A DNA stretch of 63,955 nt, the filler included, from Craspedostauros australis (lineage: Eukaryota), in the NCBI GenBank assembly GCA_030167865.1. It is 7 parts of 7 records of this genome, joined end to end, with 100 filler letters (N's around TTAATTAATTAA, not from the genome) between each part and the next. Parts side by side here need not be neighbours in the genome. Positions count along the whole stretch, not along the records: positions 31,495 to 50,492 come from JALAGF010005341.1; 6 more parts are not named here. One strand, written 5' to 3'. Below the pieces are notes generated by a model, which saw nothing but the letters and a program-made list of their open reading frames with translations, was not told where the DNA came from and did not search any database. The first letter of the stretch is position 1; each line of letters opens with the position of its first letter. Made by a program: the position numbers and the translations under genes. Positions 26,828-50,492 of the stretch are shown piece by piece.

Positions 26828-26839
26828 TTAATTAATTAA
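26828..26839. other. Artificial contig linker TTAATTAATTAA (also 31439-31450, 50537-50548, 54938-54949, 57988-57999, 62358-62369)
   Basis: Identical 12-mer with stops in all six frames, each time embedded in N runs. Confidence 0.97.
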
Positions 26840-26883
26840 NNNNNNNNNNNNNNNNNNNNNNNNNNNNNNNNNNNNNNNNNNNN

Positions 26884-30806: not shown

Positions 30807-31494
30807 GGTGTCTCGAGGCAGAGTACGCGTATGCAGTCGTAGTGGAGTGCGTATTGTATGTACCATACCATATAATAGGTCGTACGTATGATAGGTTGCG
30901 CGTAGGCGTCACGATAGGTTGTATAACATCAGGTTGAACGATTGAGTTGTGGTGACGGATGTTATCGGAGTGGGGGTGCTGCGATAGGATGGTCCCTTGG
31001 ATCACAGTCATAGTACTAGCTGCACTCAATGTAAAACGGTGTCGCGATATCACTAGTTGTGGAGTTTTGGCCCCTTGTTGCCACTGGTTTGCTTGCTTTT
31101 GGGAGAAACGGCGATTGGATATTTAGAGCTATTTCGTGTTTACTCTCGCTGATCCGTCTTCTACGTCACATGGAACGGATTCCACGTCATGAAAAACGAG
31201 TCACAACAGAGGAAGAGACATCGTGTGACTCTTCCTCTGCAAGACACGATGATGACTGCGCGCGGCAACAACAAAATTTGCCATGCCAGGACAGCCAACA
31301 ACACTCCACGTTGACCAGTCTCACAATGGAAACCAGCAACATCCAATCGTCTCGGAATTCGACGAAGCGCATTGACGAGCTGTCCGACGCAGACNNNNNN
31401 NNNNNNNNNNNNNNNNNNNNNNNNNNNNNNNNNNNNNNTTAATTAATTAANNNNNNNNNNNNNNNNNNNNNNNNNNNNNNNNNNNNNNNNNNNN

Positions 31495-32410
31495 GGATCA
31501 CGAAAAATGGTCTGTAGAATCTAGTACATTTTCTACGTAAGTCCCGAACGAAAACAGGCCAGAAACAGCATCAACCGTGGTCCAACTCTCCGCACTCAGC
31601 TCGTATGGGCCATCCTGTACTCATATTTAAGTTATAGTATCGAATAGTGTTTATATATACCATCCTTAAGTTTGGTGGCTGTTGCTCTCTTTCTCGGTGA
31701 GCACTGATGCCATCCATCAAGCACCCCCATCATTCACGGACGTTTTTTGGCTTCTGGTTGGCGTGTTTTCATGGTCGAGTTGTTCCAAAGAAGTGTCCCA
31801 ACCGTCCATGACGTCATAATGACGCAAGCGTTGGAACCAGAATTGACCAAACTTGCCACCGAAATTGGGGATCCGAGTGGTCAAATATCAATCCGACCTC
31901 CATGGGAGCACTAAACGCAAGCATACCTCCATACCATCGCACTCAAACATAATATAGATCATATAGTTGTGACCGCCTCGGAGAGAGTATTCTGAAATGA
32001 TATCTATTGTACAGATTGAGCCAAAGAATGCTCAGCGCGGAGACTTCAAAGATGGAGGGTCGAATTTCTCGAAACAAGAGGCCAGATCCTACCAGACCCC
32101 TGTAGAATCCTACTTGTAGCCAAATGTAGCCAATGAAAACCCGGTCCGTCCTTCGTCCGAAGGCAAAACCACACCAAGGGGGTCAACAAACACAAAAAGA
32201 TCGATGAGATGGTAGTAACAACATTATAATGTTAACACTTGCCTGGATAGCCCTGGCTCTTAAGTTTACGTAGATGTGAAGAGATGTTGGATTGAGTGTC
32301 TATAAAACGAAGGCGGAGTTTGGGAAAAACTGATCCAAAATCTGTAGCCAACTGTAGCCAATAATCGCCAATAATCGCCAATTTTTGGGGTCCGTTTGTT
32401 TGAGGCACTA
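31495..32410 (+). mobile_element. hAT-like MITE, copy 1 (right end intact, about 56 bp of left end missing in a gap)
   Basis: About 800 bp nearly identical to 49697-50492. It ends in GTTTGTTTGAGGCACTA (32394-32410), the exact reverse complement of 49641-49657. Subterminal TGTAGCCAA and AATCGCCAA repeats. Confidence 0.85.
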
Positions 32411-32467
32411 TCCCCCACTCGACAACGATCACCATCATCGTTATCATCACCAAGACTACGCTGGAAG

Positions 32468-33357
32468 ATGCCATCGATGGCGTTGCATGAGGAAGTTGCG
32501 GCCATCCTGCAGGCTGCCGTCGGCGGATTCCGATATGGAGTCAAGATACGCGCACCTCACGCGCTGGTGATGGTCTGCCTGTTTCGTCGATCGTTGTCAG
32601 CCAAACAAAAGCTGCAAACCATCATGAACTTGACCTTTGAGCATGCAGGCCATTTAGCGCAGTTTGCGGCGCTGTACAAGGTGAGACATGTGATGATGCT
32701 GCTGCTGCTGCGTTACTCTGCATGGCATACTGATGTGTAACAATCCGTTGGAGGAAGAATGTCTCACACAGCACCATACTCATACAATCACCAATCACCA
32801 ATCGCCCACCACCAAATCCAAAAACAACAACAACTGCATAGACGTTGCTGAGCGCATTTAAATTCATCTCGGTTCATCTGAGCAATCATTGGATTGGTTG
32901 CAACGAACCGATTGAGAGATACATTGGCCGCATCTTGATGTCGATGCTGGTGGATGGACGCGTGCTGCCGCAAACATCATACGTAGACGATACGGTCCAC
33001 GTTGCGCCTGCAGGCTATCCACAATCGGCGTTGCAATCGTTCCTTGCTGGCGGCATCGGCGGGTACCTGGTCTGGGGACGGTACTCTTCCATCAATTCAC
33101 AGATCGTCATGTATCTGGTCAGCCGTGTTCTGTTGGGACTGTATAAGAGATTGGCCGAGCTGAGATTGGCACAAGCGGGGATTGCAGTGACGGATGATTC
33201 CATCTCACGGGCGATCTCCGCCTCGAACACCAACTCCTACCCATTCGTCGCGGCTCTGACATGGGCATGCGTCATGGCGCTGTTTGAAGAGACGCCTCAT
33301 GTATTGCAACGGTCGTTGAGACAGAGCATGGATGACATTTACAGATTTTCATTATGA
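32468..33357 (+). CDS. PXMP4: Peroxisomal membrane protein 4 (PMP24); intron 32681-32841
   Basis: GFRYGVKIRAPHALVM, HAGHLAQFAALYK|TLL, FLAGGIGGYLVWG, INSQIVMYLVSRV, WACVMALFE, SMDDIY. Frame-preserving GT..AG intron. Start at 32468 or 32477. Confidence 0.9.
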
Positions 33358-33629
33358 AGGAGATCCTCAGTGCATCACTGCCCTTCAATTTCCCGAAGAG
33401 GAAAAAAACGGTCCTGACACAACCACCCATGGTGGCATTGTTGGAGATGCACTTGTAAAGCATCTGAGAATGGCGTGCTGATGGTCAACTGACTTTGGAA
33501 CATATTATACTAATCGAGGGTGCTCTATTGATGCAATGCGGTGTTACATTGTATGGGAATATGAGGAGAGTACCATATGAGTATTAACAATCTCGAGTGG
33601 ACTCTGCTCTGCCACAGAAAACGGGCAGT

Positions 33630-34981
33630 CTATTTGATGTCAGAGTTCCCAGATATTATGTCGAACAAACTGGCCAGAGAGGTCTTCGGTTGTCGTGCCT
33701 CGTCTCCTTCGTACCAAAAGTCTCCTTCGTAGTTGGCTGCAGGAGTGTTTGCGAGTTTGATTTGAAAGGATGTGGGTGGAATAGGTGGAAGTATGCACAG
33801 CAGGTGAGCAAAGGGAATGGCAGGCAACTGTTAATCTGCGAGGCCAGGTGCCACGCATGTGACACGCAACTTCAAGAAACATCCCGCCACAGCATGAACG
33901 CCAAGCAAGCAAAATCGCACTGCACCGCACCGCACTGCTGATCACACGTACCAACTGCCGGCCAGTCATCGACCGACCGAAAGCCGTACCGCGCCTTGAG
34001 TTCGCTGAAACTATCGGATCCGCTTGGTCCCAAATCCACGACGTCGACCCCATCCGATTCGATGGATCGTCGCACGAGATCATAGACGGAATGGAACCAG
34101 ACGTATTGCTTCGCGGCTTCGTCATTTGCGTAGAACCACTGGCCGCGCACAGTGGTTCCCTTGCGCACCTCATGCGCAATCGCAATGACCTCGTTGTTCA
34201 CGTTGCGGTACTCTCGAATCTCACCCGTCATGCGCGTCGTGCCGACGTATCGATTGATCGCCTCGCCCAGCGCATCAAAGAAGCCTTCGGCACCCCACGA
34301 CAGCAGCCGCACCTCGTGCGCCACAACGCATCGGAAGTGCGCCAGCGAGGAATGCGGCGCGGGCTGTCCACCCATGATGGGCCGATGCGCGACAGTGAAG
34401 TTCTGCTGCAGCGCTTTCTTGATGGTGCGGCGGCATCCGCGCGGCAAGGTGGCAACCCAGTCATCGACGTGCTGGAACTTCCCAATCTCCAGCAGGGCAT
34501 GCGGACGCGTCTTCCACTGTCCCGTCCACTGCGCCGCGCCCATGGCACCCAGCGATGCGTACTCGCGATTCCCCAACGAGATGGGGTCTCCGCAGAGCTC
34601 CTCCTCCTGAGGTGCGGATCGCAAGGCCTCCTTGGCCAGCAAGGCGGGATCGCTATTCTCCGGCAAATCACCGAAGATGGCGGCGATGGCAAGCATCAGG
34701 TTGTTGTAGCGTGGGTCGCCCAGGAAAGCGCGAGACACCCAGGCAAAGAGCGTCGTGACGCGTTCGTCATTGAGTTCGGTGCTGAGTGCGACAGTCTGCT
34801 TGTCCTGTTCGGCAAACAAAAGTGTCAGTGTGCGGGCGATGCTAAAGCTGATGCTGTTCTGATTGTTGATAGTGGGGCGAGCCTGGATCTGAACATCAGT
34901 GGATTTGATCACGAATCCATTGGCGCCGCCCGCCAGAAAGAACAACCCCAAGAGGTGAAGGAATGGTGACAGAATTGGCAT
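33630..34981 (-). CDS. Probably plastid-targeted protein with GNAT/FemAB-like acyltransferase features; exons 34981-33952 and 33736-33630
   Basis: Signal peptide plus ANG-F. Motifs DDWVATLPRGCRRTIKK and VVDLGPSG...LKARYGF. Splicing G|GTACGT...CAG|CC gives WPAVANYEGDFWY. Gene well supported, fold assignment tentative. Confidence 0.7.
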
Positions 34982-35732
34982 CTTGTGATGTATTCTATTG
35001 TAATGTATTGTATTTTATGGATGAACTTGTGCGAACAATGTGCTACTCCCACGCAGCAGAGTGCGGCTCTGATCTTGCAAGATGGACGGGCGCTTCTCCG
35101 AAGATCTTTGCGCGCAAGTATCCACGCTTGTGCGCGTGCAAATACTACTATTATGAGCTCATGGTCGGAACGCAGTTGGAGGAGTCGGAACAGGATTGAC
35201 AGAACAGTCCAATTCTTTGGATCTGATTTTTCGCAACTGTGTGTGTTGTTGTCGTGGCCGACGTCAGCATTTCTTCTCTTCTTGTGGCGAAGAAAGCACT
35301 TTTCAGTCACGCAGAATATGACTCGTGACTACCGTGTTGGACACGCTGGATTCACACGACTCCTCAAAACCAGAACGAGATCAGAACAACGCGAGAGAAC
35401 GGCGAAAAAGGCCGCGTGTTGATGTGCAACAAGGGGAGATGTGGAAGGCTCACAAGTCAGCCTTGACACCGACACCTTCGTCCCCATCCCAATCTCGATC
35501 TCGTCCATCTCTCTCAGTCCACCCTGCCTCCATTGAGACTAGTCGCACACTGCCATCCAAACAGAGAGCTCTGCCTTTGTACTATTCTATATTCCTACGA
35601 CTATTCGTGCAAATAGAATAGAGTCCTCTTGCGTAGAGCAGATTACTCGAGTCTGTGATCCCAGACAACAAGCGATAGCAACCAGCAACAACCACCCAGC
35701 GATAGCAACCAACTTGCTCATACTCCGAGAGG

Positions 35733-37079
35733 ATGCAATCAGCACAAGGACAGCCAAACCTTCCACCTTGGCAGGAAGGAATGCCAACCCCATCCAATGC
35801 AATGCCGAATCCAGGCAGCCGTCCGAACACACCAGGTGGTGGGATGGAGGAGCTTTTGCCCCTCGTGATGCAGCTGACGAACGCTGAACAGGTGAGGCAT
35901 CTGCGTGAGCGAGAGCGTGAGCATTCATCGTGCGCTTTGACAACACGCATTCAAGTATCCTCGTTGCGCAGTGCCAATGGCACAGGCTGACATCATCATC
36001 ATCATCGTCATCTCACAAGCAATTACAACGACTCTAATCTGTATCTCTTCGCTATCTGCTTCGATGTCTGGGGTGGTTGGAAACCAATGGTGACCAATGA
36101 TGACCAACGATATCCAATGATATCCAATACAACCATTCCGCGCTTTGCTTACTTCCGTACTTACGTTCGTGCTACTATACTCCGCCCACGTTTGCAACTA
36201 TCGGCGGCTGCGAAGAGGGAAAGCGTCTTGCTGGAGCTTTCCAAGAAACGCGAATCGTTTGCTGACCTTGCTCCCATCCTGTGGCATTCGCCGGGGACGA
36301 TCGCTGCGCTGCTGCAAGAAATCGTCTCCATCTACCCGCTTCTGGCGCCGCCCACCCTCACGTCCATCGTATCCAACCGAGTTTGCAACGCTCTGGCATT
36401 GCTCCAGTGCGTTGCGTCGCACTCTGACACCAGGCAGCCGTTCCTGACGGCGCAAATCCCGCTCTACCTCTACCCATTCCTCAACACCCAAAGCCGGTCG
36501 CGTCCCTTCGAGTACTTGCGGCTGACGTCCTTGGGGGTCATCGGGGCGTTGGTGAAGGTGGACGATACGGAGGTCATTTCATTTTTGCTCAGCACCGAGA
36601 TCATCCCGCTCTGCCTCAGGATAATGGAAACGGGCAGCGACCTTTCCAAGACCGTCGCCACCTTCATCGTGCAGAAGATCCTCCTGGAGGACACCGGTTT
36701 GAACTATGTCTGCGCCACCGCCGAACGCTTCTATGCTGTGAGCACCGTCCTTGGGAACATGGTCAAGCATCTGCAGGGACAGCCAAGTGTACGTCTCTTG
36801 AAGCATGTGGTGCGATGCTACCTGCGGTTGGCGGATCACCAGAGAGCCCGCGAGGCCCTCCAAACGTGCCTGCCACAAAGCTTGCAGGACAACACTTTCG
36901 TGCCGCACCTGCCGAATGACCCGACCGTGCAAAAGTGGCTGTCGCAGCTCCTGAAGCTTGTGGGGCCGACAGGAGGCGACGCCGCGGCTGCCGCTCCCAA
37001 TCCAGGCCAACCCGACTTGTCTTCGGGTGGTCCCATCAACCGCGGAGTTTTGGGTGGTGTGCTCATGGACAAACCATGA
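35733..37079 (+). CDS. CNOT9: CCR4-NOT subunit 9 (Rcd1/Caf40); exons 35733-35891 and 36216-37079
   Basis: [71 protein letters not shown]. Confidence 0.97.
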
Positions 37080-37544
37080 GGGGGGCGTTGCGTGACAACG
37101 CCTGGTGTTCGTATGCAGGCAATACAATTAACATGGAGTACTATCGCTCTAAATGCATTATGTCATGTGAAATGATACGATTCATACCCCGGTGGAGAGA
37201 GAGTTCATGGCATTGCATGAAGCGTAGGTACCAATAGAGTACATCGCTTCGTTGTTGGTTTTCAATCCAAATATATATTTAATCGCGTAGACTTCCCTGA
37301 AACGTGGTTGCCACAATTGATTCACGAATACAAATCAATCACGCTCTTCTTCGACTTGAATCTTTTCACTTCGTTTTTGATTTTTTGTTCTCTCTCTCTC
37401 TTTCGCCTTCGAATCCAAACGAGAAAACGATCAACAATCGCGATGCAAACAACGAAGAGTCAAAAGAGAGAGCGCGGCTAAGTTGCCTTCAGACCGCACA
37501 AAATCAGCCTTCCATCGCTCGATCAACTATCCATCCATCCAACC

Positions 37545-38582
37545 ATGTCGTCTTTCAAGGTATGTGCACCCCGCCCTGCTCTTCTGTTTGTGTCGATGCC
37601 TGTGTTTGTATTATGCATGACAGGTGGGATGGCTCAGAATCACGATGACGCCTTCTCGCATTCGAACCACCACGATGACATGTAGAAAAGAACGCTATCG
37701 CATTGACTCTTGGATACTTGACTGCCTCAATGAATGCATGAACTCACCCCGCCGATTCATCGACATCCACTGTCTTCTACGCTTCCATACATCCACACAT
37801 CCAACACATCCAACCCTTCTAACACATCCAACACATCGACAACCGTGAACACTCACAAACGATAGAAATTCCAAACCGCCGTCCAGGAAGAAGCCTTTGC
37901 CGTTCTCAAGAATGGAGCCGCGAAGATTGAATCTTTCCAGGCCGAGTGCGCCACGCACTTTGCCTACCCCACCCTGTCCAAGGCCACCGAAGAGTTTGCA
38001 TCCGTCGGTGCGGCCGCCACCAACCCAAAGATGACTGCCTGCGTCTCCAGCACGCTGGATGTCATGGACGCCGTCGGCAAGGACCTGCAGCTCATCGAGA
38101 CCTTTCTCAACATGCACATTCCAAAGATGGAGGACGGAAATAACTTCGGTGTCACCGTCCAGCTCGCCCTGCTGAAGCAGATCTCTGACACGCAAGAGGC
38201 CCTCGGAAAGAACATCGAGTCCCTGTCGGGATACGCGGCGAGCCGCGCTGACGTGCTGGACAAACTCTCCCTGCCATCGTCTTCCAGCACGACGACCAAA
38301 TCCTCGTCGTCCACCACCACCGACGGAAAGAAGGAGGACAAGAGCAGCGAATCCACCGAAGAGAAGCAGACGGCGGGCAATCCATCTTCCGTGTCTCACA
38401 CCGCGCGGCTTGGGGCATTGGTCACCGTGGACTCGCTGTATTACTCCAAGGCACAGCGCGCGGCACTGTCCGCCATCGCATCCTACATGGCCGTGCTGGA
38501 TTTCCTGGAAAAGAACCAAGAAAAGCTCAAGCAGCCCAAGGGATCCGCTGGCTCGCGCAGCGCCTACTCGGGCATGTACTAA
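37545..38582 (+). CDS. Proteasome activator PA28/REG family protein; exons 37545-37559 and 37866-38582
   Basis: Activation loop HIPKMEDGNNFGVTVQ and C-terminal KLKQPKG...GMY. MSSFK|GTATGT...TAG|AAA is in frame. Confidence 0.93.
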
Positions 38583-39017
38583 GCACTCTAGGCACTAAGT
38601 GCACCCACCTCTGTCTAGAGAACCACTGTACTCTATGTCCTCTACCGATGCTCTCTCGCTTTTCAGTTGTATGTACACTCACGATGCCAAAGTCATAGTG
38701 AGCTTGCGCACCATACATCACCGATTCGAACGAAGCAAGAAGGTGAACCCCCCAAACCCCACTACTCTACTGCAAGCGTCATCAAGACCTGTGTCCACTC
38801 TATCCATGATCCGAAGACGGCCACAGGCCAGATGAAACATGTACGACTATGGTACGCACAAATAGATATCTATCGCGTTTATTGTCGTGTTCACTAACTG
38901 AATACCCAAGGAAGGGAATTGGACAAACGCGTGGATGGGTAGATCAGTTGGCCGGTAGAGAGATGGATGCGGGATGAAGCGATGGCGATGATGGTGACCC
39001 ACGACAATGATGCCGAC

Positions 39018-42014
39018 TCAGTTGAGACAGTTGCCATTGCAGCAAGCACAGGTCAACCCGCAGTCGTAGCGGAGCGTGGCGCCCAAAGTGCAAATGCCTG
39101 GCGGAATCGAACCGACCAACCTGTTCTGGGTGAGGCTCAAGTAGTCTGTCAATCGGAGGGTGAAGGACGAAAGTGATGAAGACGGATGAACAGTTGGAAC
39201 GTGTGCGCATCGGAGATATAGTTCTTCTGTGAGTTGGGACATGGTGTGTGATGTACTCGTACTAACTGATACGTGTCAATGTGCTCACTCACGCACCCAA
39301 TTTCTCACGCCAACAGCTTAGCAGTTCAACAGTTCGACGTACCAAGGCTTGCCATATTCCCGAGCTCAGCTGGAAGCTGACCGTTGAGATCGTTGCCATC
39401 CAGAACCATCTGAGTCACCTTGTCAAGCTTCCCGATCTCGGACGGCAACCTCCCCGATAACTTCGTGAATGCGAGCTGCAGCTTCTTCAAGTTCGAGAGC
39501 TTCCCCAATTCGGATGGGATGTTGCCTCCGACATCTCCACCGAAAATCGCGAGTCCCTCTGTTGGAAAAGAAAGCGAGCAAGGGAAGACAAAGTCAACAA
39601 AGAGTATGCGAGGCAGCACAAAGCAGAGCGTGAGCAAGTTCATTGTCCCAAACCATCGGCAACAACAAAGCAAGTACGATTACTCTGAGGTTGTTCCCAC
39701 AAGCACAACAACACAGTGGTGGACGTACCGAGCTTTCCCAAGTTTCCCAATTCTGTTGGCAACGTGCTTTCGATGACTGCCGATGTGATCACCAATTCGC
39801 CTATCGTTTTGGAACCCACATGATACAGAAGAAGAAGAAGGAAAAGGAAAAGGAGGAGAAAAACGAGAGAGAGAGAGAAAGATACGGTCATGAAAGTGAC
39901 TGTGAGCCTTGTGGATGTCGTCGACGAAGGATCCAACGGAAGAAGGCGATGCCACCCACATCAGATCATATGGCAGTCGAGCAGCCGGACGTACGCAGAT
40001 TCTCCAACGCTCCGAGTTCGCTTGGGAGATCACCGGTCAAGTTGGAATCCAAGAAGACCAATGCCTCTGGAGGTTGCGGATGGGCGTATCATGCGAGCCG
40101 TGTGGAAGTGGAGTGTGAACATGAAAGGAAACATCGTGATTGCAGTCGAGAGAGATGTGAGGCGAAGTTGGATGGCTGTGTTGTTGCTTTATGAAGTCTT
40201 GGTCAACACAGGAGTACAGCATGGCGCAGTACACCGTGGTACAGCATGCGTACAAGTATGTAGCATTCCGCATACAGAAGGAGCTTCGTACCGAGAGATG
40301 TGAGAGACGCTATCTCAGTTGGGATTGATCCATTGAATGGAGACTTGGAAGCTTGGAAATAGACTGGAAGCAAGGAGGGTTGGCGACGGATCAAGGAGCA
40401 GAACAGATCGGTGGTTGAAGTGCAAGAAGAGCAGCAGAAGAAAGGATGGTGAGGGGCCATGGTCGTGCTTCCAGATGCCACATTTGCACACACACTAAGT
40501 ACTCTGCGTGACTTTCCAAACGACTTACCGAGATTGGGCCAGGAAAGAATGTAATCGAAGATCTTTCCTGTCAACCCAAAGGACGAGAGCATGAAGATGC
40601 TCTCTGTGCCCAGCGTGTGTTCGAAGATGGAGTTGATGAACGATGTGAACATGAGAGCAGGCGGGAGAGGCGAAAGAGTGAGAAGCAAGGTGAGAGAGTG
40701 GGGAAAAACAAAACAACACAAAACAAAAAGCGATCTTGCGGATGACAGTGTTCGTGAGATGGATGTCATGTCAAAGTCAAGTTGTTGCCAAGCCCGAGCT
40801 CTGTACCGTTCGATGAGTCCTGTGTCAATCGCAACGCGTTCCTTCTTACCGAGATTCGTCAGCTGCTTCATGGCTTCAGGCAGACGTCCTGGCTGGACAG
40901 TACCACTCAAGTCGAGAACCTTGAGGCTCGTCAGTCTTCCAATCCGATCATCGAGCTTCAATGCAAGCTCCGTACTTCTCACGTCAAGTGTGGCTGGCAG
41001 TTTGTTGTGATGACGGTGATGCGATGGTTGGGATTACGCGAAGAATAGTACAGACGATACACAGTGAGTGATAGTAGGTTGTGTGAGTGGAATCGAAGAA
41101 CAGGAGCAGAGCAAGATGACGACTCGATCCATCGACCAGCTGCAGAGCCAGCCAAGCCGCAAGACGAGACACCGGCATCAGCGCAAACGCGACATCTTAC
41201 CGAGGTTGGTGAGGCCGTACAGTGCATCCGGCAAGGTTCCTTCGAGAGCATTGGAACCGACGGAGAGCGTGGTCAACGCCCGAAGAGTACCGATCTCCTC
41301 CGGCAAGGTCCCCGAGAGCCCGCGTTGGAAGAGCTGCAACTGGACCACCTCCAGACTCTCGTTGCACACGATGCCTTCGAATGTGCACTCGTGCTGATGC
41401 GGGACGTCCTGCCACATACGTCGCATGCTCCAGAGATGTCCGTTGGCGGAGAATGCGAGTGTGAGGATGGCGTATCGTTGCACCAGGTTGGAGGACGAGG
41501 GCGACTGGATGACCGTGTCTTCGTTGGCAAGCCAATTGACAGCCTGGGACTGCGGGGATTGGTCGTCCACCAAGCTAGCAGGACCGCTCACGTCTTCCGC
41601 CATGGCCTGGAGGAAAACGAGCCGCGCGCCAACGTCCTTGCGCGGTTCGAGTGGCTCTGGTCTTGCGGGAGATCCAGTGACGGCAGAGCCGCCGTTGTTC
41701 TGCTGCGACCGAATCGCCATGTACGCTCCCGCTGACACCAACACCACCAAGAGCACCGTGGCGCTGAGCACGAACGCACGTAGGCGCGACGTGCCTCGCT
41801 TCGTCATGGACGCACCATGATCGGACATGCAGCAGAGCTTGCGGAGGAAGCCATCTCGAGGCGCGGCTCCGTAGGCATCGCCTCTTGCCGTGTCCCATGG
41901 TGCCCTCGACGGTTCCTCGCCGCCGCCATCGACCACAGTGACCGGAGCGTTGATGATGGCCGTGGCGACCTCTACGTCCTCGGTGTCCTTGCGAATGCTC
42001 GGATCGATCGACAT
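39018..42014 (-). CDS. Membrane-anchored LRR protein (24-aa plant-type LRRs, Cys-rich C-cap). Eight exons: 42014-41201, 40993-40850, 40603-40529, 40363-40292, 40066-39995, 39800-39729, 39558-39343, 39145-39018
   Basis: TM segment FVLSATVLLVVLVSAGAYM; SPQSQAVNWL...QRYAIL; HECTFEGIVC N-cap; LSGTLPEEIGTLRAL-type repeats; DCGLTCACCNGNC end. All seven introns GT-AG and frame-consistent. Confidence 0.9.
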
Positions 42015-42799
42015 TCTATCGGAGGTGCGCGCAGCTACGAGATTGGCAGCGTACGGATGCTGAATGGAATGAGCTTTCGGCTGAGGCTTGTATAGAAGCA
42101 GGAGAGTTGGCGAAGTCTGCAATTATGGTATAAGTGCAATGCCTATGGCCGGACGGTAAGGAGGTGAAGGGATAGAGATGGATGGAGAGAGAACGGAAGA
42201 GACGTTACGCGATGGCAACCGCGGGTGCCATTGATCGTTCGTGAAGCACATCGCACTCGTACTCGGCTGGTGTTTGTTGCACCTCTCTCCGCAAAGGCAT
42301 GGATCGCGCCAAACCAATTTCAAGCTTTGAGAAGGTACGCACAACGTGACTCGAGCATCTTGAGAAGGAAGTCATGTGGCCAAGGTGCCATTGCATATTC
42401 GTTGACCGATGCGGCATCTTGCTGGACGTCCCTGCCCTTGCAGCTTTGGCGGCGGATGGTCGCGAAAGGGGACGACGAGGTGCGGCGCACCATTTTGTGG
42501 GCGAACAAGTTGTCGAGAAACCTTCTCAAAACGCGGTGAATGCCGATGGGACAAATTGCATGTGTGTGATGATACGTGTTCGTCTTGGTACGACTTATTT
42601 GGTACTACGAAGGTATTCAAGTTGATATCCCTACTATAGTACTTGTGTATGCGATACTACGCTCGATACGACATCAAACAGCCAACGTCGGTAACAGTGG
42701 CAACAACACCGACCACGACAAGGCAACACCAACAACAATGATGACAAGAACAAGACAGAGGGATCAACACAGAAGAACAAAGCACATCGGCAACTTCTG

Positions 42800-42842
42800 C
42801 CATCCATCCATCCATCCATCCATCCATCCATCCATCCACCCA
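42800..42842. repeat. (CATC)n microsatellite upstream of NDUFS6
   Basis: Tandem CCAT units visible directly. Confidence 0.9.
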
Positions 42843-42915
42843 CCCAAGAACACTCAAACTTGACCCTCCGATCATCGGACGACAGAGATCAACATTATAT
42901 CATACGAGGACGACG

Positions 42916-43335
42916 ATGTTTGCCAAGATACTCCAATCCAGAGCACCGAGATCCTTTGCCACGGCGGCAACCCGCTCAGGCTTTGCCGCTGTGAGATCTT
43001 TCGCCATCACTTCGTCTCCTCCTCCTGTGGCGCCCGCGAAGACCCCGTTCGGTGAAGATCCGGAGACCTTCGAGCCCACTGCGGAAGAGAAGCGCCTCCA
43101 CTACCGCACCTACTCGGAGTCCAAGTACAAGCTCGGCAAGCACCGTTCGAACGCCCTGGAGCTCATCGAGAAGGTCCCGATCATTGAGGTGGAGGGCGAG
43201 ATGGCCGTCTGCGATGGTGGCGGCGGCGCCCTGGGCCATCCCCTCGAGTACATCAGTCTGCAGCGTCCCGGAGAGATTGCGAGATGCAAGTACTGCGGCC
43301 TGCGTTTCAGATCCACGTCCTGGGATAACCACTAA
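42916..43335 (+). CDS. NDUFS6: NADH:ubiquinone oxidoreductase 13 kDa-A subunit (zf-CHCC)
   Basis: AVCDGGGGALGHPLEYISL...CKYCGLRF and an Arg/Ser/Ala-rich mitochondrial presequence. Confidence 0.95.
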   Translation: MFAKILQSRAPRSFATAATRSGFAAVRSFAITSSPPPVAPAKTPFGEDPETFEPTAEEKRLHYRTYSESKYKLGKHRSNALELIEKVPIIEVEGEMAVCDGGGGALGHPLEYISLQRPGEIARCKYCGLRFRSTSWDNH

Positions 43336-43821
43336 TGCGAGCGCCGAAGCAAGCAGTGGTAGAGCAAGCGCAAGCGCAGGAAGCTCGCAATCTCTTCTGC
43401 ATCTGTGTCAATCTGGATGGTGCGCGTGCTGCCGTGCAAAGCACTCCATCATCCGACGAACGGCAGGCAACATCACAGACACACACACATGAATGAATGC
43501 ACTCATTCATGCATGCATTGGAATGGAGGTCGAGGTGGAGAGCTGAGCCGCACGGATGAGTGGACTGTTCGTACGCCGTGCAACGCTCAGCAAGCATCCC
43601 ATCCTGATCCACACCAGACCAATAATCAACTCAAGCTGCACCCGACCCCGTCCGCTCTCTTTACCTTTGATAACAAAAGTAAGAAAAAGCAAACAAAGCA
43701 ACAACTGCACAGACGAGGCATGCAGTGATTTCATGTGAAGAGAGGAATCTCCCACTCTTCGTAACTGTCTACGACGATTGGAGACGTTCTGTTAAGCTCT
43801 ACTTGCACCATGCTCGAATGC

Positions 43822-45806
43822 TTATTTGGAACCGACAGTGAAGAACTTGTGTTGCAATGCCTCCTGCAGTGATCCCGGTAAGGTTGGCAGGTTCGTGGGG
43901 CGGTTGGTGGAGTTTCGTTGCACACAATGATGTAAATGCAGACCGTGGACATTGTATCGAACGATGCAGAGAGCAGGTCTGGTCGTGTGAGCGTCATGGA
44001 ACATACTGGTACCGGTCGAATACATGACGAGATCATCGTGTCTGCGCTTCACAATCGCAATCATCTTCATTGACATCGACATCGACACATTTCATCATCA
44101 CCAGCCCAAATGCAACGTACCTTGACCGGAATTCGTCGAGTCGGATCCAACGCCAAACTCTTGCGCAGCAGGTTTTCGAACTCCACCACCAGCGCGAGGC
44201 TATCGCTCTTGGACTTGGCCTTCATGATGATCGTCTTGAGATTCGGCGACATGTTGTTCATCAGCGTGTGCTTGCGGACCTTGTGCTGCGTGACGGGGTC
44301 GACAGAATCCTCCAGAAAGACAAAGTTGGCGGCCTGCTGCGCGAAGTGCTCCGGCAGCGGATGCTTCTTCACTTGCACCAGATGCTGTCGGATGACGCGG
44401 TTGGGGACAGGTCCCATGGCCTCCATGAACTTCTTGAGCATGTGGTTGTTCGATCCACCGTGGAACATGAGACGGCCGAGAAAGAGCTCGCCGACCGTCA
44501 CGGCGATGCTCCAGAGGTCGATGGCGTAGGTCGGGATGAGGCCCAGGATGATCTCGGGGGCTCTGTAGAAGCGCGAGACGAGGTAGGGGGTCACCATCTC
44601 CGCCGCTGCACTGGATTCGACGGCGCTGCCGAGGTCGCAGATGTGGACGACGGAGAAGTCGTGATTGACCAGGATGTTGTCCGGTTTGAGATCCGAATGG
44701 ACGATGCCGTGCTGCTTCAGATGGGCGCAGGCGGAAAGAAGCTGCTGGAAGTAGGATCGCACCGCCGTCAAAGACAAGCCGACATTCTTGCCGAACTTCT
44801 TGAGGACGTCCCTCAGGTTGTATTGCACGTGCGGAAAGGCGAGGAGGACATGACCTCTGAATTCCAACGGGGCGTTGTCCGTCGGGAATAGCAGCGGGAT
44901 GATACCGGGGCATTGCTTGAGCTTCTGCAGGAACTGTACCTCGTTCTGCGCAGCCCTGGCCATGGTGTCGTTGTGCCGCACAAATTTGATCGCCACCTGT
45001 GGCGGCAGTTTGATGGAGGAGCTGTTGCTCTCCGTGGAGCACTTGAGCACCGTTGAGAAGACGCCCTTGCCGATGACGCCCATGACCCGAAATTGGATGT
45101 TGGCCGAAGTCTTTGGCACGTCGACGCTGATGATCTCCCCTGGTGTTGCCTTGTAGTAACCATCGACGTCATCAAACTCCTGCTGGTCCTTGCTGGCGCC
45201 ATCGGGCACGGCCCTCTGCCGTTGGTTGGATGGAGCGGCCGCCTTTTGTATGGCAGTTGGAGAGATCGATTCTGCGAACATGTCGAAATCGTCATCATCG
45301 TCATCGTTGCTGTTTTCTTCTTCGTCATCTTTCTTTTCCATGGCATACTTTTCATTTTGAGCATCGGATGAGCTTGCAATCACGGCCGCACCGCGTCGGC
45401 CATCATCGGCGGATTGATCACGTCGCTCTTTGCGCGATTTCTTCTTGCTCTTGTTGGTCGATGGAGATGTCGCTTTTGTGACCAAGGGCTGCTCCTGCTC
45501 TGACTCTTTGTTTGCCTGCTGCAACCGTTTTCTGCGTTGCGCGCGGCGAGCTTCCGCGGCCTTCTCGCTCTGTTGCTCCGAACTGAGGAAGCTGTCGCCT
45601 GCCACGAACTCAGCAAGCTCTGCATCTTCCGCTTCCTTTGGCACGGGTGATGGCTCTTTGTCTGGAGCCGGCACAGTCTCCACCTTCACTGGACTTGGCT
45701 TGGATTGCTCCACCTTCTTTGGCGATGGCTTGGCCTCTTGAGTCTGCGCAGCTGGATTCTCGGCATCTTTGGAACGCCTGCGCTTCTTGCCGCTGCGCTT
45801 TCCCAT
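43822..45806 (-). CDS. PRP4: PRP4-family CMGC Ser/Thr kinase; exons 45806-44121 and 43863-43822
   Basis: FDDVDGYY, IGKGVFSTV, YNLRDVLKKFGKNVGLSL, HSDLKPDN, TPYLVSRFYRAPE. Spliced end RIPVK|EALQHKFF. Confidence 0.93.
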
Positions 45807-46609
45807 TGTTCTTTGTGATGCGTTCTGCTGAACCGAGATACTCGTAGAATACTAATATGTTGGGAGTACCGTGTTCTTACTGATGTGTCTGGACTTGTGT
45901 CTGGACTTGTGCGACGAAGAGTAGCGATGATTGTGCGTTGGTGCTCTCTAGCTCGTATTATGAATAAAATGATGATAATAACACCAAAGTTGATGTTGAT
46001 GTTGATGCCGATGTGCGATGTTGTGGTTGGATCTCCTTGGCGTGTTCGATGGATTTGGATGAGGTGATTTGTTTGTTTGGTTGGTGGTCGCGGAGTTTCC
46101 CTTTTGGCCTGGCATAGGGACTTTGGTACATTGTGTACGTGGAAATAGGTATCTAAAATGGCGAATGTAACAACACTTTAGCCAGTATTTAACTCATATT
46201 GTCTGAATGATATTTTTGAAATAGCTTGAAATACGAATAACCGGGGTGAAGAGATGGCGGCAAAGACAACGAGAACGTGCGCTGCAAACACAAGCACAAA
46301 CAAAGACACACAAGAGCGAACACGGGACGACTACAAACGCACAACTCCAACCAACACACAGCACAAGACAAGGCAAGGAAACTACGCGAACCCACATCAA
46401 CCACAGCTCAACCACAGAGCTCAAACAGAAGCAACAGAAGCAACGGCGTCGACGAACGTTGGGGCGGTTCTTCCAGCCGCAAGCAACATCCACTCACTTT
46501 CGCGCGAAGCTGGTTGATCCCATCGCAGCATCAGCATCAGCATCAGCATCAGCTACAACAAACAAACAATAGAGTAGACTGCCATAGATCGCACGAAAGC
46601 CCCAGCAAC

Positions 46610-47595
46610 ATGCCACCAACTTCAACAGGAACATTCCAACCTTTGCGCCACCGGACAGGTTCGATACGAGAAAGGCTCCATGCCTACACCAAGAGCACTT
46701 TAGGTGCTGGAGGAAGCTACAACGAGGCGGTGAGTGCTTCATTGTGGTGGAACAATTAAGGACACTGATGGATGCAGCAGCACATGCTATCATATCATAT
46801 CATGGTAGAGTAGCATTCTACATGTGTCCGACGCTGCGCCGAGATGTGCCTTTGCGGAGGCTTTGTCATTGCCAAGCAATCACAATTGCCATTTCCATGT
46901 CCGTGCTTTAGCTATTGTCATGCTGTAGCCATCGAACCGACTCGCCGTGCTCACATCATGCCGCCGCTTCATTTCTGTGCTTCGCCGTTCACCCACAATG
47001 CATAACGACTGCGCTCCCGCAATGACAGGTTGCGCTGCCGTCGGGAGAGTCATGCGCCGCATGGGTCGCCGTCCATGCCATCGACTTCTACAACGACGTC
47101 AGCACGATCTGGGCCGTCATGTCGTCCGATCCCTACCTCAATTCGTTCCGACCAGGTGAGGGGTTTCCATCGGGCGTGGAGTACAGATGGTCCGATGAGC
47201 CTGGCGACGCCGTCTCCGTCTCCGCCCCGATCTACATCGAGAAGGTTCTCGCGTGGATAGCGGAGCAGATCAACGATCAGAGCAAATTCCCAGACGACGA
47301 CAACGAGGCCGAGGCCCTGCGCGTCTTCCAAACTCCGCAATTCGCCGCGCTCTGTGGCCAGATTTTCCGTCGCCTTTTTCGCGTGTACGGAATCATCTAT
47401 TCCAGCTTCTTCGGCACACTCGAGGCCTTGGACATGGCGCCGCATCTCAACACGGGATTCAAGCACTTCATGTTCTTCTGCACAGAATTCGGCCTGCTCC
47501 CGGAGCGAGAGATAGAACCGCTGGAGGTCTTGGTCAAGCCCATACGAAAAAAGTACTACGCCGCCAAGCAAGGCGCCACAGTTCCGGGTAGATAA
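46610..47595 (+). CDS. MOB kinase activator family protein (divergent); exons 46610-46729 and 47029-47595
   Basis: KSTLG...EA|VALPSGESCAAWVAVHAIDFYN, EYRW, SAPIYI, IFRRLFRVY, HLNTGFKHF, EIEPL. Confidence 0.92.
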
Positions 47596-48469
47596 TGAAC
47601 AGCTGTCTGCCATGCTCTACGTATTCATGCATGCCATACTCGCACATTACTATACGTACTCGTACAATTCATCGCGAACCCAATGCATCGAAATGAGCGG
47701 CAAAAGACCACCAATCGTTGTGACTTGATGGATGTTGCCATGACAATGGTCGGGGAGAAATTTAAATCGAGCAGACCATTCAGAACACTCGTGCAATAGG
47801 ACAATACAGTAAAGTACAGCAAAGTACAGTACAGTACTCTTTGTTCACTCCAACTCTGCACATACATGCTCCGAAGTCTCTCTCTCTCTCTGGGGAGTGA
47901 TACTCTGTTGGCATTACTTCACTCCTCTCTCCAGAGGCAAATGCAGCAAATTCAACTTGGAACAGCAACGATGGTGATGACGACGACAAGGACAGAGCGA
48001 TGCTCTCACACCATTGTTCCATAGAGTACTCAACAACAATCTATGGATTCTGCGAATTATATTTACGCTCCTCCTTGCAGTCGCATGTCTGTGTTGTCCG
48101 GATGCTTCGATCTCCAGCAGGAGCGCGACCCGGGATGAGCTTGTCATGTTTGATCTATACTCGCGCACCTTAGCCACTCTCGCCAACGCTGTGTATGACT
48201 CACTCGACCGTGGCGTCATCTGATGCCAACAACAAAAACACCCACAACAACCCACGTGAAGAACAATTTCAAAAAAACGACTTTGTCCAACGCTCCCCCA
48301 ACACACCTCTGTTCCAAGATGACGAACAAAGACCATCACATCATTGTCAAGAGCAAGTGCCTCTGCCGCCGACCTTCCTATCTCCTCTCGATCCTTCAGA
48401 TTCGCAATCGCATCACCTACGACCCATCACACCTGATAAGCAAGGCAAGCAACCGAAGCAGTAACAGCG

Positions 48470-49102
48470 ATGGACAGCAGAGACTTTCCTTCGACGCTGG
48501 AGGATGAGAGCATCAAGAGCGAAGAAGGCGAGCCACACCATGAGTCATATCACGAACATGAGTACTTGAACGAAGGCACGGGGTTTCGCAGCGGCAGCGC
48601 AAGCGCCCGAGACGTCGATGCATATGGCAAGATGGAACAGAACACGTCCTCCGACCCACCTGCTCGACCACAGCGTCCAACATCGCACAGCCAGGATGCA
48701 GAATTCGTGCAGGACAATGGGACTGAAAAGGCCAGGATCATCCAGGCCCTCAAAGAAGAATACCAGGCATCCCTGCAGGAGGAGCAGATGCTGATGCAGT
48801 CACAAATGCAGATGGTGTCGCAGCTCAACAAGCTGAAATCGTACGTCGCGAGGATCGAAAGCGACACGCAGCTGGCGCGGTTGGCAACGGAGCAGGCGCA
48901 AGTGGCACGGCTGATGCATCGCACGGCGCAGACCGATGATGGTACCAGCAGCGACGGCGGTGAGTTAGCCAGGCTGCTGGGGTCGCTGGCAGTGGATGGG
49001 AGTTTGGTGCAGCCCCCCAACACTGAAGGCGATGATGATGTGGGAGGCGCCCTCACCGTCGGCGACGACGATGATGTTGTCACCATCGAGGTCAGGTTCT
49101 GA
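48470..49102 (+). CDS. Hypothetical protein with a coiled-coil segment
   Basis: 210-aa ATG-initiated ORF with coding-like codon usage and a helical IIQALKEEYQASLQEEQ...KLKSYVARIE stretch. No family recognised. Confidence 0.6.
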   Translation: MDSRDFPSTLEDESIKSEEGEPHHESYHEHEYLNEGTGFRSGSASARDVDAYGKMEQNTSSDPPARPQRPTSHSQDAEFVQDNGTEKARIIQALKEEYQASLQEEQMLMQSQMQMVSQLNKLKSYVARIESDTQLARLATEQAQVARLMHRTAQTDDGTSSDGGELARLLGSLAVDGSLVQPPNTEGDDDVGGALTVGDDDDVVTIEVRF

Positions 49103-49640
49103 TGTTGCGTCGCCCATTCAAGGTGGCGAATGTAACATAATCCTTGGAGAAAAGACAGCTCCAGCATCCCACACTTCTACTCGCACGGATCAGTGCGCGT
49201 ATGGTAAGAAGATGTACTCTATGTATGGTACTAGTACGATCATTACAAAGTATACCGCAATATTCTGGGGCGCCATTTCTATTCCATCTTTCCATTTCAG
49301 CAGAGCATGGTACGAGCTATGTGCCTATGCGTTGCGAACAAGGATCGGCGCCGCCAACCATCGCAGCAAAGGAACTGCAGTTCGCTACTAACCGAGGGGA
49401 TTCCACACTGTTCCAGGCATCCGTCTGTACAGACATCCATTCCATCACTCATTCCATCACCCATTCCAGATCCTTCATACTCGTACATACGAGTGATGGT
49501 GCAGCACGAGATCCAGGGGCGTTGTTCTGTCGAAGCTGTGGCAGAGCGAAGCTTCAGTGAGACGCCACAGCATGGGAGAATACTTTCGATGCCTCATCAA
49601 CGTACCATACTCGCGTGTGGTGGGATGCGCCTTCCCCCTC

Positions 49641-50492
49641 TAGTGCCTCAAACAAACAGCTGTAGCCAACGCCATTGGCGATTTTTGGCGATTTTTGGAT
49701 CACGAAAAATGGTCTGTAGAATCTAGTACATTTTCTACGTAAGTCCCGAACAAAAACAGGCCAGAAACAGCATCAACCGCGGTCCAACTCTCCGCACTCA
49801 GCTCGTATGGGCCATTCTGTACTCATATTGCAGATATAGTATTGCATAGCGTTTATATATACCATCCTGAAGTTTGGTGGCTGTTGCTCTCTTTCTCGGT
49901 GAGCGCTGATGCCATCCATCAAGCACCCCCATCATTCACGGACGTTTTTTGGCTTCTGGTTGGCGTGTTTTCGTGGTCGAGTTGTTCCAAAGAATTTTCC
50001 CAACCGCCTATGACGTCACAATGACGCAAGCGTTGGAACCAGAATTGACCAAACTTGCCACCGAAATTGGGGATCCGAGTGGTCAAATATCATTCCGACC
50101 TCCATGGGAGCACTAAACGCAAGTATACCTCCATACCATCGCACTCAAACATAATATAGATCATATAGTTGTGACCGCCTCGGAGAGAGGATTCTGAAAT
50201 GATATCTATTGTACAGATTTAGCCAAAGAATGCTCAGCGCGGAGACTTCAAAGATGGAGGGTCGAACTTCTCGGAAAAAAGAGGCCAGATCCTACCGGAC
50301 CCCTGTAGAATCCTACTTGTAGCCAATTGTAGCCAATGAAAACCCGGTCCGTCCTTCGTCCGAAGGCAAAACCACACCAAGGGGGTCAACAAACACATCA
50401 AGATCGACGAGATGGTAGTAACAACATTATAATGTTAACACTTGCCTGGATAGCCCTGGCTCTTAAGTTTACGTAGATGTGAAGAGATGTTG
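49641..50492 (+). mobile_element. hAT-like MITE, copy 2 (left end intact, right end lost at contig end)
   Basis: Begins TAGTGCCTCAAACAAAC (17-bp TIR, 5'-TAG). Body nearly identical to 31495-32290. Reconstructed length about 970 bp, no transposase ORF. Confidence 0.85.

What the first reader, a model, noticed from the sequence alone, without database searches (positions are those of the whole stretch)
39018..42014. LRR receptor-like gene built from symmetric, repeat-sized exon cassettes
Seen: all seven introns are phase 1 and fall at the same register of the LRR (after LxxL). The internal exons are 144, 75, 72, 72, 72 and 216 nt, i.e. exactly 2, 1, 1, 1, 1 and 3 repeats, so any exon can be skipped, duplicated or swapped without frameshift. 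Every other gene in the window has 0-1 detected intron. Established: repeat-sized LRR exons with shuffling are described for brown-algal ROCO genes and proposed as an immune-diversity mechanism. Inference: a diatom cell-surface LRR family (N-terminal TM, no kinase, Cys-rich cap) able to generate combinatorial binding surfaces.
Basis: partly seen in the sequence, partly recalled or inferred. Interest (0 to 1): 0.72.

Follow-up and report, generated by a model that had tools for sequence, protein, structure and literature searches.

The report
Diatom LRR surface-protein gene, repeat-sized exons
This is a diatom gene for a membrane-anchored leucine-rich-repeat surface protein whose introns all cut at the same point of the repeat, a tidy but already known kind of gene architecture with no sign here that it is used to generate diversity.

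Summary
On the minus strand, 42014..39018 reads as an 8-exon gene. All seven GT..AG introns are phase 1 and follow the last L of LxxL. Internal exons are 144, 75, 72, 72, 72 and 216 nt. No RNA run was listed, so the introns are inferred. Support comes from GTA[AC]G donors, codon usage and gap-free alignment of the spliced product to an intronless homologue across 6 of 7 junctions.

The product has an N-terminal membrane anchor, a plant-type N-cap, 12 LRRs of 24 residues, a six-Cys C-cap and no kinase. It belongs to the known diatom plant-type LRR receptor-like proteins.

Nothing here indicates active shuffling:
- introns are unrelated to each other;
- repeats are only 16-50% identical;
- there are no cryptic LRR exons and no paralogue in the window.

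Same-register phase-1 introns recur in two other environmental family members, one at the position of intron 7. I read the structure as an old, partly eroded repeat-per-exon architecture. It parallels brown-algal ROCO and Tetrahymena LRR genes but differs in phase and register. Interest is modest.

The parts
39018..42014 (-). Whole coding region, start codon to stop codon: 8 exons, 530 codons with the 39145 acceptor
   Evidence: The first ATG of the open frame is at 42014 and the TGA stop at 39020-39018.
41201..42014 (-). Exon 1 (814 nt): cytosolic tail, membrane anchor, stalk, N-cap, LRR1-2. Ends in phase 1 after ..TNL.
   Evidence: Residues about 192-271 match the N-caps and first repeats of plant LRR receptor ectodomains.
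41718..41774 (-). Core of the single hydrophobic segment (residues 81-99), preceded by K/R-rich residues: signal anchor, N-terminus inside
   Evidence: mean Kyte-Doolittle hydropathy 2.2 over 19 residues, the only such peak. Five relatives inspected have the same N-terminal anchor.
41349..41558 (-). N-terminal cap of the LRR domain (WLANED..VQRY..C..GIVC), with two Cys
   Evidence: Aligns to the same region of P0006 and the L001 ORF and to plant LRRNT regions.
40994..41200 (-). Intron 1, 207 nt, GTAAGA..CCAG, phase 1
40850..40993 (-). Exon 2, 144 nt = LRR3-4
40604..40849 (-). Intron 2, 246 nt, GTAAGA..ACAG, phase 1. Its length is a multiple of 3 and it has no in-frame stop.
40529..40603 (-). 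Exon 3, 75 nt = LRR5 (25 residues)
   Evidence: The one-residue gap against L001 falls here.
40364..40528 (-). Intron 3, 165 nt, GTAAGT..CCAG, phase 1. Its length is a multiple of 3 and it has no in-frame stop.
40292..40363 (-). Exon 4, 72 nt = LRR6
40067..40291 (-). Intron 4, 225 nt, GTACGA..CCAG, phase 1
39995..40066 (-). Exon 5, 72 nt = LRR7
39801..39994 (-). Intron 5, 194 nt, GTACGT..ATAG, phase 1
39729..39800 (-). Exon 6, 72 nt = LRR8
39559..39728 (-). Intron 6, 170 nt, GTACGT..ACAG, phase 1
39343..39558 (-). Exon 7, 216 nt = LRR9-11
   Evidence: LRR_1 27.1 bits against a cut-off of 20.6; plant LRR-RLK ectodomains, E down to 1e-88.
39146..39342 (-). Intron 7, 197 nt, GTACGT..ACAG, phase 1. 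Alternative in-frame acceptors would end the intron at 39227 or 39266.
   Evidence: The 39146 acceptor gives gap-free LRR periodicity against L001 and P0006. The L011 relative has an intron at the same position.
39018..39145 (-). Exon 8, 128 nt: LRR12, C-terminal cap and stop
39021..39095 (-). C-terminal cap, 25 residues with 6 Cys (C..DC..C.CC...C); the protein ends here
   Evidence: The same cap is present in P0006, P0011, the L001 ORF and L011.

Best explanation
What it is. A protein-coding diatom gene for a type II membrane protein, with the N-terminus in the cytosol. A single anchor helix displays the ectodomain outside the cell. The ectodomain has a plant-type N-cap, twelve 24-residue LRRs and a disulfide-rich C-cap. 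There is no kinase or other signalling domain.

How it most likely works (inferred). The concave beta-sheet of the LRR solenoid binds an extracellular protein or peptide. Any signal passes through a partner, or the protein acts as an adhesion or recognition molecule. This is what has been proposed for other diatom LRR proteins that lack a kinase.

The gene structure. Each intron sits in phase 1 between the last L of one repeat and the two residues before the next beta-strand. Exons therefore hold whole repeats: 2+cap, 2, 1, 1, 1, 1, 3, 1+cap. I read this as an old repeat-per-exon (class 1-1) architecture that has been partly eroded by intron loss. The 144- and 216-nt exons would be fused units, and some relatives have lost every intron in this region. 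I do not read it as a device in current use. Skipping or duplicating an exon would keep the frame, but that is only a permitted consequence of the structure and is not shown to happen.
For: Gene model:
- All seven donors are GTA[AC]G at one register.
- Codon usage separates exons from introns.
- The spliced product aligns to the intronless L001 ORF over residues 75-524 (E 6e-52). 6 of 7 junctions lie in gap-free alignment. The seventh lies inside a 24-residue stretch, one extra repeat, that L001 lacks.
- Collinear alignments to P0006 and P0010 agree.

Family:
- P0006, P0011 (Seminavis robusta 'Leucine Rich Repeat'), and the ORFs of L001, L015 and L011 share the N-terminal anchor and N-cap; four of the five (not L015) also show the C-terminal Cys cap.
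- The seven Atlas clusters shown at score 0.91 or more for the L001 ORF are commonest in Bacillariophyta.
- Exons 1 and 7 match plant LRR-RLK ectodomains.
- Diatom plant-type LRR proteins with a membrane helix and no kinase are described in passages of 10.1101/2024.04.15.589526 and PMC6261938.

Old rather than active:
- Introns have no mutual similarity; the best match is 14 nt at E 0.12.
- Repeats are 16-50% identical.
- There is no cryptic LRR unit outside the exons.

Shared positions:
- L014 has 4 introns, all phase 1, and 2 of them are at exactly this register.
- L011, L012 and L026 have one phase-1 intron at this register, directly before the exon for the last LRR and the C-cap. That is the position of intron 7 here.
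- The L001 homologue is intronless.
Against: - No transcript evidence exists for any splice site (one search listed no run).
- ORF logic leaves many formal GT..AG alternatives.
- Introns 2 and 3 could be read through in frame.
- The relatives with shared intron positions are only about 25-30% identical and of unknown species. Homology of intron positions, as opposed to repeated gain at a favoured site, is therefore not proven.
- The other 23 fetched loci gave no credible same-register intron (L019's two hits look false), and some of them, with G+C above 0.6, may be bacterial.
- Function, topology and ligand are inferred from family resemblance only.
- The source genome is not held, so paralogues, the real test of shuffling, could not be examined.
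Confidence: 0.6

Rival explanations
1. Active diversity generator. The symmetric cassette exons are skipped, duplicated or exchanged among paralogues to give a repertoire of LRR surfaces, as proposed for brown-algal ROCO genes.
For: - All internal exons are class 1-1 and repeat-sized. Every split codon starts with G or C, so any skip stays open.
- Donor sites are uniform (GTA[AC]G), which would allow any donor to pair with any acceptor. The register scan finds 4 in-frame, in-register skipping combinations.
- The gene has exactly one more repeat than the L001 homologue.
- ROCO genes with this layout do show alternative LRR isoforms (PMC11378527, passages).
Against: - Introns have no mutual similarity and repeat units are only 16-50% identical, so there has been no recent duplication or exchange within the gene.
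- Unlike Ectocarpus ROCO genes (PMC3341825, passage), the introns hold no non-coding LRR relics.
- There is no paralogue in 64 kb.
- No RNA data are available.
Confidence: 0.1
2. Parallel intron gain. The introns were inserted independently, and repeatedly in different family members, at a favoured sequence context that recurs once per repeat. They would then not be inherited from a repeat-per-exon ancestor.
For: - Intronless relatives exist (L001).
- Introns are unrelated in sequence and similar in size, 165-246 nt.
- Every exon ends in an L codon plus one base, G in 6 of 7, giving G|GT at the donor.
- L014 also has phase-1 introns at two other registers.
Against: - Seven gains at one register in one gene, with none elsewhere in 530 codons, requires a very strong site preference. 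The context CTCG|GT is not the classical MAG|GT proto-splice site.
- The position before the exon for the last LRR and the C-cap is shared with L011, L012 and L026.
- The introns show no sign of a mobile introner family.
Confidence: 0.2
3. The gene model is partly wrong, or the locus is a pseudogene. For example, introns 2 and 3 could be coding, giving one exon along ORF 40203..41033, or another acceptor could be used for the last intron.
For: - Introns 2 and 3 have lengths that are multiples of 3 and no in-frame stop; the ORF is listed.
- Two further in-frame acceptors exist for intron 7.
- There is no RNA evidence.
Against: - Shuffled sequence of the same composition stays open in 5.6% and 19% of trials, so the open frames are unremarkable.
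- Codon-usage scores of these introns are -0.04 and -0.18 in frame, against 0.22 to 0.33 for exons 2 and 3 and -0.02 for exon 4.
- Both start with GTAAG at the repeat boundary.
- Homologues align across these junctions without insertions.
- The frame is intact over all 8 exons.
Confidence: 0.1

Closest known systems
Diatom plant-specific-type LRR receptor-like proteins without kinase (Pseudo-nitzschia MRP2/MRM2, Seminavis robusta 'Leucine Rich Repeat' families; classification of Schulze et al. 2015, which I saw only as a citation)
   Same: - Diatom origin.
- The 24-residue NxLxGxIP-type repeats.
- A single membrane helix and an extracellular LRR domain.
- No kinase.
- N- and C-terminal Cys caps.

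   Different: - The anchor here is N-terminal. The MRM2 clade is described with a C-terminal membrane helix, so this is not an MRM2 orthologue.
- In the papers I searched and read I found no description of a repeat-per-exon gene structure for diatom LRR genes.
Brown-algal ROCO (LRR-ROC-COR) genes with shuffled 72-nt LRR exons (PMC3341825, PMC11378527)
   Same: - One 24-residue LRR per 72-nt symmetric exon.
- Stramenopile host.
- Frame-neutral exon skipping or duplication is possible.
   Different: - ROCO exons are phase 2 and begin at GxxP; these are phase 1 and begin two residues before LxL.
- ROCO proteins are cytosolic GTPases; this is a membrane-anchored ectodomain with no ROC-COR.
- ROCO genes show recent shuffling, intronic LRR relics and isoforms. 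None of these is seen here.
Tetrahymena LRR genes with arrays of 90-bp exons (PMC6564038)
   Same: Repeat-sized exons with an extreme bias to a single intron phase, read there as clonal expansion of an exon-intron unit.
   Different: - The exons are 90 bp and phase 2.
[quoted passage not shown]
- Here there is one gene with 72-nt phase-1 units and diverged repeats.
Plant LRR receptor kinases and receptor-like proteins (FLS2, GSO1, MIK2, PEPR1, SERK ectodomains)
   Same: These are the best solved-structure matches for exons 1 and 7: the same repeat class and N-cap.
   Different: - Plant receptors are type I: signal peptide, then C-terminal membrane helix and kinase or short tail. This protein is anchored at the N-terminus and ends at the C-cap.
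[quoted passage not shown]
- That SERK genes carry one LRR per exon is my recollection; searches did not confirm it.
Vertebrate gonadotropin receptor LRR exons
   Same: Classic case of one LRR per exon with all introns in one phase, read as exon duplication (cited in PMC11378527, passage).
   Different: Phase 2, an animal GPCR context and a different LRR class.

Membership tests
Diatom plant-type LRR receptor-like proteins (no kinase) | 24-residue plant-specific LRR consensus (LxxLxLxxNxLxGxIPxxL) | tested here: met
   12 units were laid out in register, 11 of 24 residues and one of 25. Exon 7 passes Pfam LRR_1 at 27.1 bits against a cut-off of 20.6. Exons 1 and 7 hit plant LRR-RLK ectodomains. 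Several units replace the N by S, T or G.
Diatom plant-type LRR receptor-like proteins (no kinase) | Single membrane-spanning helix with the LRR domain outside | tested here: inconclusive
   There is one hydrophobic segment, residues 81-99, with K/R on its N-terminal side, which predicts N-in/C-out. The 8 Cys in the two caps fit an extracellular location. The topology is not shown experimentally. A downstream ATG could in principle make the segment a cleaved signal peptide.
Diatom plant-type LRR receptor-like proteins (no kinase) | No kinase or other signalling domain | tested here: met
   Pfam finds only LRR families in exons 1, 2 and 7, and nothing in exon 8. The protein ends at the C-cap. 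The kinase ORF 2 kb upstream is a separate gene with its own stop, and another ORF lies between them.
Diatom plant-type LRR receptor-like proteins (no kinase) | Diatom origin and diatom relatives | tested here: met
   The neighbouring Rcd1 ORF is 86% identical to Phaeodactylum, and other named hits are Thalassiosira, Skeletonema and Cyclotella. A Seminavis homologue was found. The L001 homologue falls in Atlas clusters commonest in Bacillariophyta.
MRM2 clade (pennate mating-type LRR proteins) | C-terminal membrane helix; orthology within family HOM02SEM009752 | tested here: not met
   The anchor here is N-terminal, whereas the preprint describes a C-terminal helix. Orthology itself was not tested because no MRM2 sequence was on hand.
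Brown-algal ROCO exon-shuffling genes | ROC-COR GTPase domains after the LRR array | tested here: not met
   Pfam was run on exons 1, 2, 7 and 8 only, and no such domain was found. The LRR array is followed only by the 25-residue C-cap, which ends the protein.
Brown-algal ROCO exon-shuffling genes | 72-nt LRR exons in phase 2, starting at GxxP | tested here: not met
   3 of the 6 internal exons are 72 nt. All introns are phase 1, and exons start two residues before LxL.
Brown-algal ROCO exon-shuffling genes | Signs of recent shuffling: near-identical exons, intronic LRR relics, alternative isoforms | tested here: not met
   Within the window, units are 16-50% identical, introns are unrelated and there are no cryptic units. 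Paralogues and isoforms could not be tested.
Plant LRR-RLK / LRR-RLP | Type I layout: signal peptide, LRR, C-terminal membrane helix, with or without a kinase | tested here: not met
   There is no hydrophobic segment after the LRR domain, and the only one is N-terminal. There is no kinase.

The most novel reading that the evidence does not exclude
The diatom uses this symmetric class 1-1 cassette structure as brown algae are proposed to use ROCO exons. Regulated skipping, or unequal exchange of single LRR exons among paralogues, would give a variable repertoire of surface recognition proteins. That would be an independent invention of exon-level receptor diversification in a unicellular alga with few introns.
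Probability: 0.1. Interest if true: 0.7.

Novelty: new member of a known kind. Interest (0 to 1): 0.35.

Why it matters
Diatom LRR surface proteins are candidates for mate, bacterium and pathogen recognition, yet none has a known ligand. This gene shows that at least some of them keep a strict repeat-per-exon layout: phase 1, class 1-1. I recall from Patthy's work, and did not check here, that this class is typical of extracellular modules spread by exon duplication.

Intron positions are shared with distant family members. That gives a concrete handle on how the family's LRR arrays were built and then lost introns in these gene-dense genomes. It also shows that repeat-per-exon LRR genes arose more than once in stramenopiles, since the phase and register differ from ROCO.

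If exon skipping were ever shown, the gene would become a candidate diversity mechanism. On present evidence it is a neat example of a known architecture.

Tried and rejected
- RNA evidence: no RNA holder was listed for 38900-42150.
- Whole genome: none is held, so paralogue and exon-phylogeny tests were impossible.
- Representative search with exon 1: dominated by giant multi-repeat LRR proteins. No close orthologue appeared, and identities in the list peak at 45%.
- Word-indexed search restricted to the N-cap region: nothing found.
- Introner or tandem-duplication idea: all-against-all blastn of the seven introns, and of the introns against the window, gave only chance-level matches. Rejected.
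- Cryptic LRR exons: an HMM of the gene's own units found nothing outside the exons beyond two hits of 8.0 and 6.3 bits elsewhere in the window. The hits on the exons themselves are circular.
- Fusion with the upstream kinase, as a reversed receptor kinase: rejected. The kinase ORF (44067-45851) has its own stop and looks by eye like a PRP4-type nuclear kinase. A plus-strand ORF lies between it and the LRR gene.
- Crude window-wide intron census from donor and acceptor motifs plus codon usage: 125 candidates, recovering only a minority of the model introns. Too noisy, and not used.
- Earlier scan notes: three look-ups returned nothing.
- Literature on plant one-LRR-per-exon genes: no usable passage. 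One search failed because a search term was too short, and I did not repeat it.
- No structure prediction was run. The spliced protein cannot be handed to that tool, and the fold of the parts is clear from sequence matches.
Full report
**The observation**

On the minus strand an ATG at 42014 opens a frame that can be carried to a TGA at 39020-39018 through eight exons. In one search I set the last exon start 4 nt off; one search corrects it.
- Exon lengths are 814, 144, 75, 72, 72, 72, 216 and 128 nt.
- The seven introns are 207, 246, 165, 225, 194, 170 and 197 nt. All are GT..AG, with donors GTAAG (3) or GTACG (4).
- Every intron is phase 1 and follows the last L of LxxL (..TNL|, ..TNL|, ..PNL|, ..TSL|, ..ENL|, ..GKL|, ..ASL|).
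The unit in exon 3 has 25 residues.
- Each split codon begins with G or C, so no combination of skipped internal exons can create a stop or a frameshift.

**Are the introns real?**

No RNA run was listed, so this rests on inference.
- ORF logic alone does not fix the sites. Within 60 nt of each junction there are 11, 31, 26, 13, 12, 20 and 17 frame-preserving, stop-free GT..AG pairs, the model's own included.
- Codon-usage log-odds, trained on eight other long ORFs of the window, are highest in the proposed frame for 8 of 8 exons and positive for 6 of 8. They are at most 0.04 in all 21 intron frames.
- A scan for phase-1 GT[AG]..AG introns flanked on both sides by units matching the LRR consensus in register recovers 6 of the 7 introns. 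Intron 2 is missed because of the 25-residue unit. The scan gives 10 hits in the window, against 2 each in the phase-0 and phase-2 controls.
- The spliced product aligns to an intronless homologue on a 19-kb metagenome contig (L001 ORF, 588 codons) from residue 75 to 524 (30% identity, E 6e-52). Six of the seven junctions lie in alignment without gaps. The first junction lies inside a 24-residue segment, one whole repeat, that L001 lacks.
- Alignments to P0006 and P0010 are likewise collinear.
- For the last intron two other in-frame acceptors exist. Only the one that starts exon 8 at 39145 keeps the repeat period and the alignment.
- Introns 2 and 3 have lengths that are multiples of 3 and no in-frame stop (ORF 40203..41033). 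Shuffles stay open in 5.6% and 19% of trials, their codon scores are not coding-like, and homologues show no insertion there.

**What the gene encodes**

- Residues 1-78 form a tail with no recognised domain.
- Residues 81-99 are the only strongly hydrophobic segment, preceded by K/R residues.
- After a stalk comes a cap region (WLANED .. VQRY .. C .. GIVC). It aligns with the same region of the homologues and with the N-caps of plant LRR receptor ectodomains.
- Twelve LRRs follow. Exon 7 alone passes Pfam LRR_1 and hits GSO1, FLS2 and MIK2 ectodomains.
- The protein ends with a 25-residue cap holding six Cys.
- No kinase is present.
- The upstream kinase ORF (44067-45851) is a separate gene, and another ORF lies between them.
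- P0006, P0011 (named 'leucine Rich Repeat [Seminavis robusta]' by its source) and the ORFs in L001, L015 and L011 share the N-terminal anchor and N-cap; all but L015 also show the C-terminal Cys cap.
- The neighbouring Rcd1/CNOT9 ORF is most like diatom proteins, with Phaeodactylum at 86%.
- The L001 homologue falls in Atlas clusters that are commonest in Bacillariophyta.

**What is already published**

- Diatom LRR proteins with a membrane helix, plant-type repeats and no kinase are in the literature. MRP2 and MRM2 of Pseudo-nitzschia are proposed as pheromone receptors or adhesion molecules (PMC6261938, passages).
- The MRM2 clade is described across pennates (10.1101/2024.04.15.589526, passages). 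That preprint cites Schulze et al. 2015 for the 'plant specific' diatom LRR class; I did not see that paper.
- LRR families are expanded by tandem duplication in Seminavis (PMC7335047, passages).
- LRR receptor-like genes are regulated during sex in Pseudo-nitzschia (PMC5485032, passages).

**Is the cassette structure in use?**

Every test possible inside the window is negative.
- The seven introns share no similarity with each other or with anything else in the window. The best pair is 14 nt at E 0.12, which excludes recent tandem duplication and an introner family.
- The 24-residue units are 16-50% identical, essentially the consensus positions only.
- An HMM of the units finds no further unit in introns, flanks or the rest of the window; the best outside hits score 8.0 and 6.3 bits. 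In Ectocarpus ROCO genes, by contrast, non-coding LRR relics sit in the introns (PMC3341825, passage).
- There is no paralogue in the 64 kb.
- Paralogues elsewhere and isoforms could not be examined.

Of the 27 metagenome loci fetched with exon 1, most carry LRR arrays in a single frame. Some, with G+C above 0.6, may be bacterial. Two unrelated loci show the same kind of intron.
- L014 is a two-module gene of the family. It has four short introns of 69-86 nt, all phase 1. Two are at exactly this register, one lies two codons later, and one lies inside the first repeat.
- L011, L012 and L026 are near-identical copies. They have one 106-nt phase-1 intron at this register, directly before the exon that holds the last LRR and the C-cap. 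That is the position of intron 7 in the window gene.
- The two L019 hits in that scan are 216 and 441 nt with weak sites. They are probably in-frame LRR DNA.
- L001 is intronless across the whole region.

The simplest reading is an old class 1-1 repeat-per-exon structure with differential intron loss. The 144- and 216-nt exons would be fused units. Repeated gain at a favoured site remains possible.

**Comparison with known systems**

Repeat-sized LRR exons with a single intron phase are well known. The examples are:
- brown-algal ROCO genes (72 nt, phase 2, exons starting at GxxP; PMC3341825 and PMC11378527, passages);
- Tetrahymena LRR genes (90 bp, more than 96% phase 2; PMC6564038, passages);
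- gonadotropin receptors (phase 2; cited).

The present gene differs in phase (1) and in register (the boundary lies before the beta-strand, not after it), and it encodes an ectodomain. It is therefore an independent instance, not a relative of those.

A search for papers holding 'diatom', 'exon shuffling' and 'LRR' found 10, of which 9 were listed. By title and abstract none concerns diatom LRR exon structure. In the one I opened (PMC7335047) the phrase is a general remark. Searches gave nothing further. The supplementary tables of these papers were not opened and might list gene structures.

**Verdict**

- The family assignment is right.
- The diversity mechanism is unsupported.
- The gene is a new member of a known kind of architecture within a known diatom protein family.

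Interest 0.35. The bold reading, active cassette use, keeps about 0.1 probability.

Noticed in passing
window 26784-26883, 31395-31494, 50493-50592, 54894-54993, 57944-58043, 62314-62413: There are six identical linkers: 44 N, then TTAATTAATTAA (a stop in all six frames), then 44 N. The window is therefore a scaffold of artificially joined contigs, and gene order across these points is not assured. The LRR gene lies in one unbroken stretch, 31495-50492.
   Followed up: partly
window 40604-40849 and 40364-40528 (ORF 40203..41033, minus strand): Introns 2 and 3 have lengths that are multiples of 3 and no in-frame stop. Retaining them would insert 82 and 55 residues in frame. Shuffles stay open in 5.6% and 19% of trials, so this may be chance.
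   Followed up: yes
L014:1-3998 (+): An environmental gene of the same family has two cap-LRR-cap modules followed by membrane helices. Its four introns of 69-86 nt are all phase 1, and two sit at the same LRR register as in the window gene.
   Followed up: partly
L011:5749-5854 (also L012:1599-1704 and L026:392-497): A 106-nt phase-1 intron lies directly before the exon for the last LRR and the C-cap. This is the same position as intron 7 of the window gene, in an otherwise intronless LRR array.
   Followed up: partly
L009:~500-700 (and L010); L014:530-598: Two different family members appear to share an intron inside the first LRR, just after its beta-strand. The window gene has no intron there. 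The L009 junction was read from ORFs only; the splice sites were not checked.
   Followed up: no
window 41130-41345 region (residues 266-289 of the product): Compared with the L001 homologue, the window gene has exactly one extra 24-residue repeat. The extra repeat straddles the exon 1/exon 2 junction.
   Followed up: no
window 42745-43335 (+), 44067-45851 (-), 35991-37079 (+): Three neighbouring genes:
- a small ORF that by eye resembles a mitochondrial NDUFS6-type zinc-finger protein (not tested);
- a kinase ORF with a K/R/S-rich N-terminus that by eye looks PRP4-like; Pfam reports Pkinase only, and the last 30 or so profile positions are missing, so a 3' intron is possible;
- a single-ORF Rcd1/CNOT9 gene.

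   Followed up: partly
window 1783-8673 (-): An unbroken 2296-codon ORF carries a LanC-like domain at residues 320-595 and has nothing else recognised.
   Followed up: no
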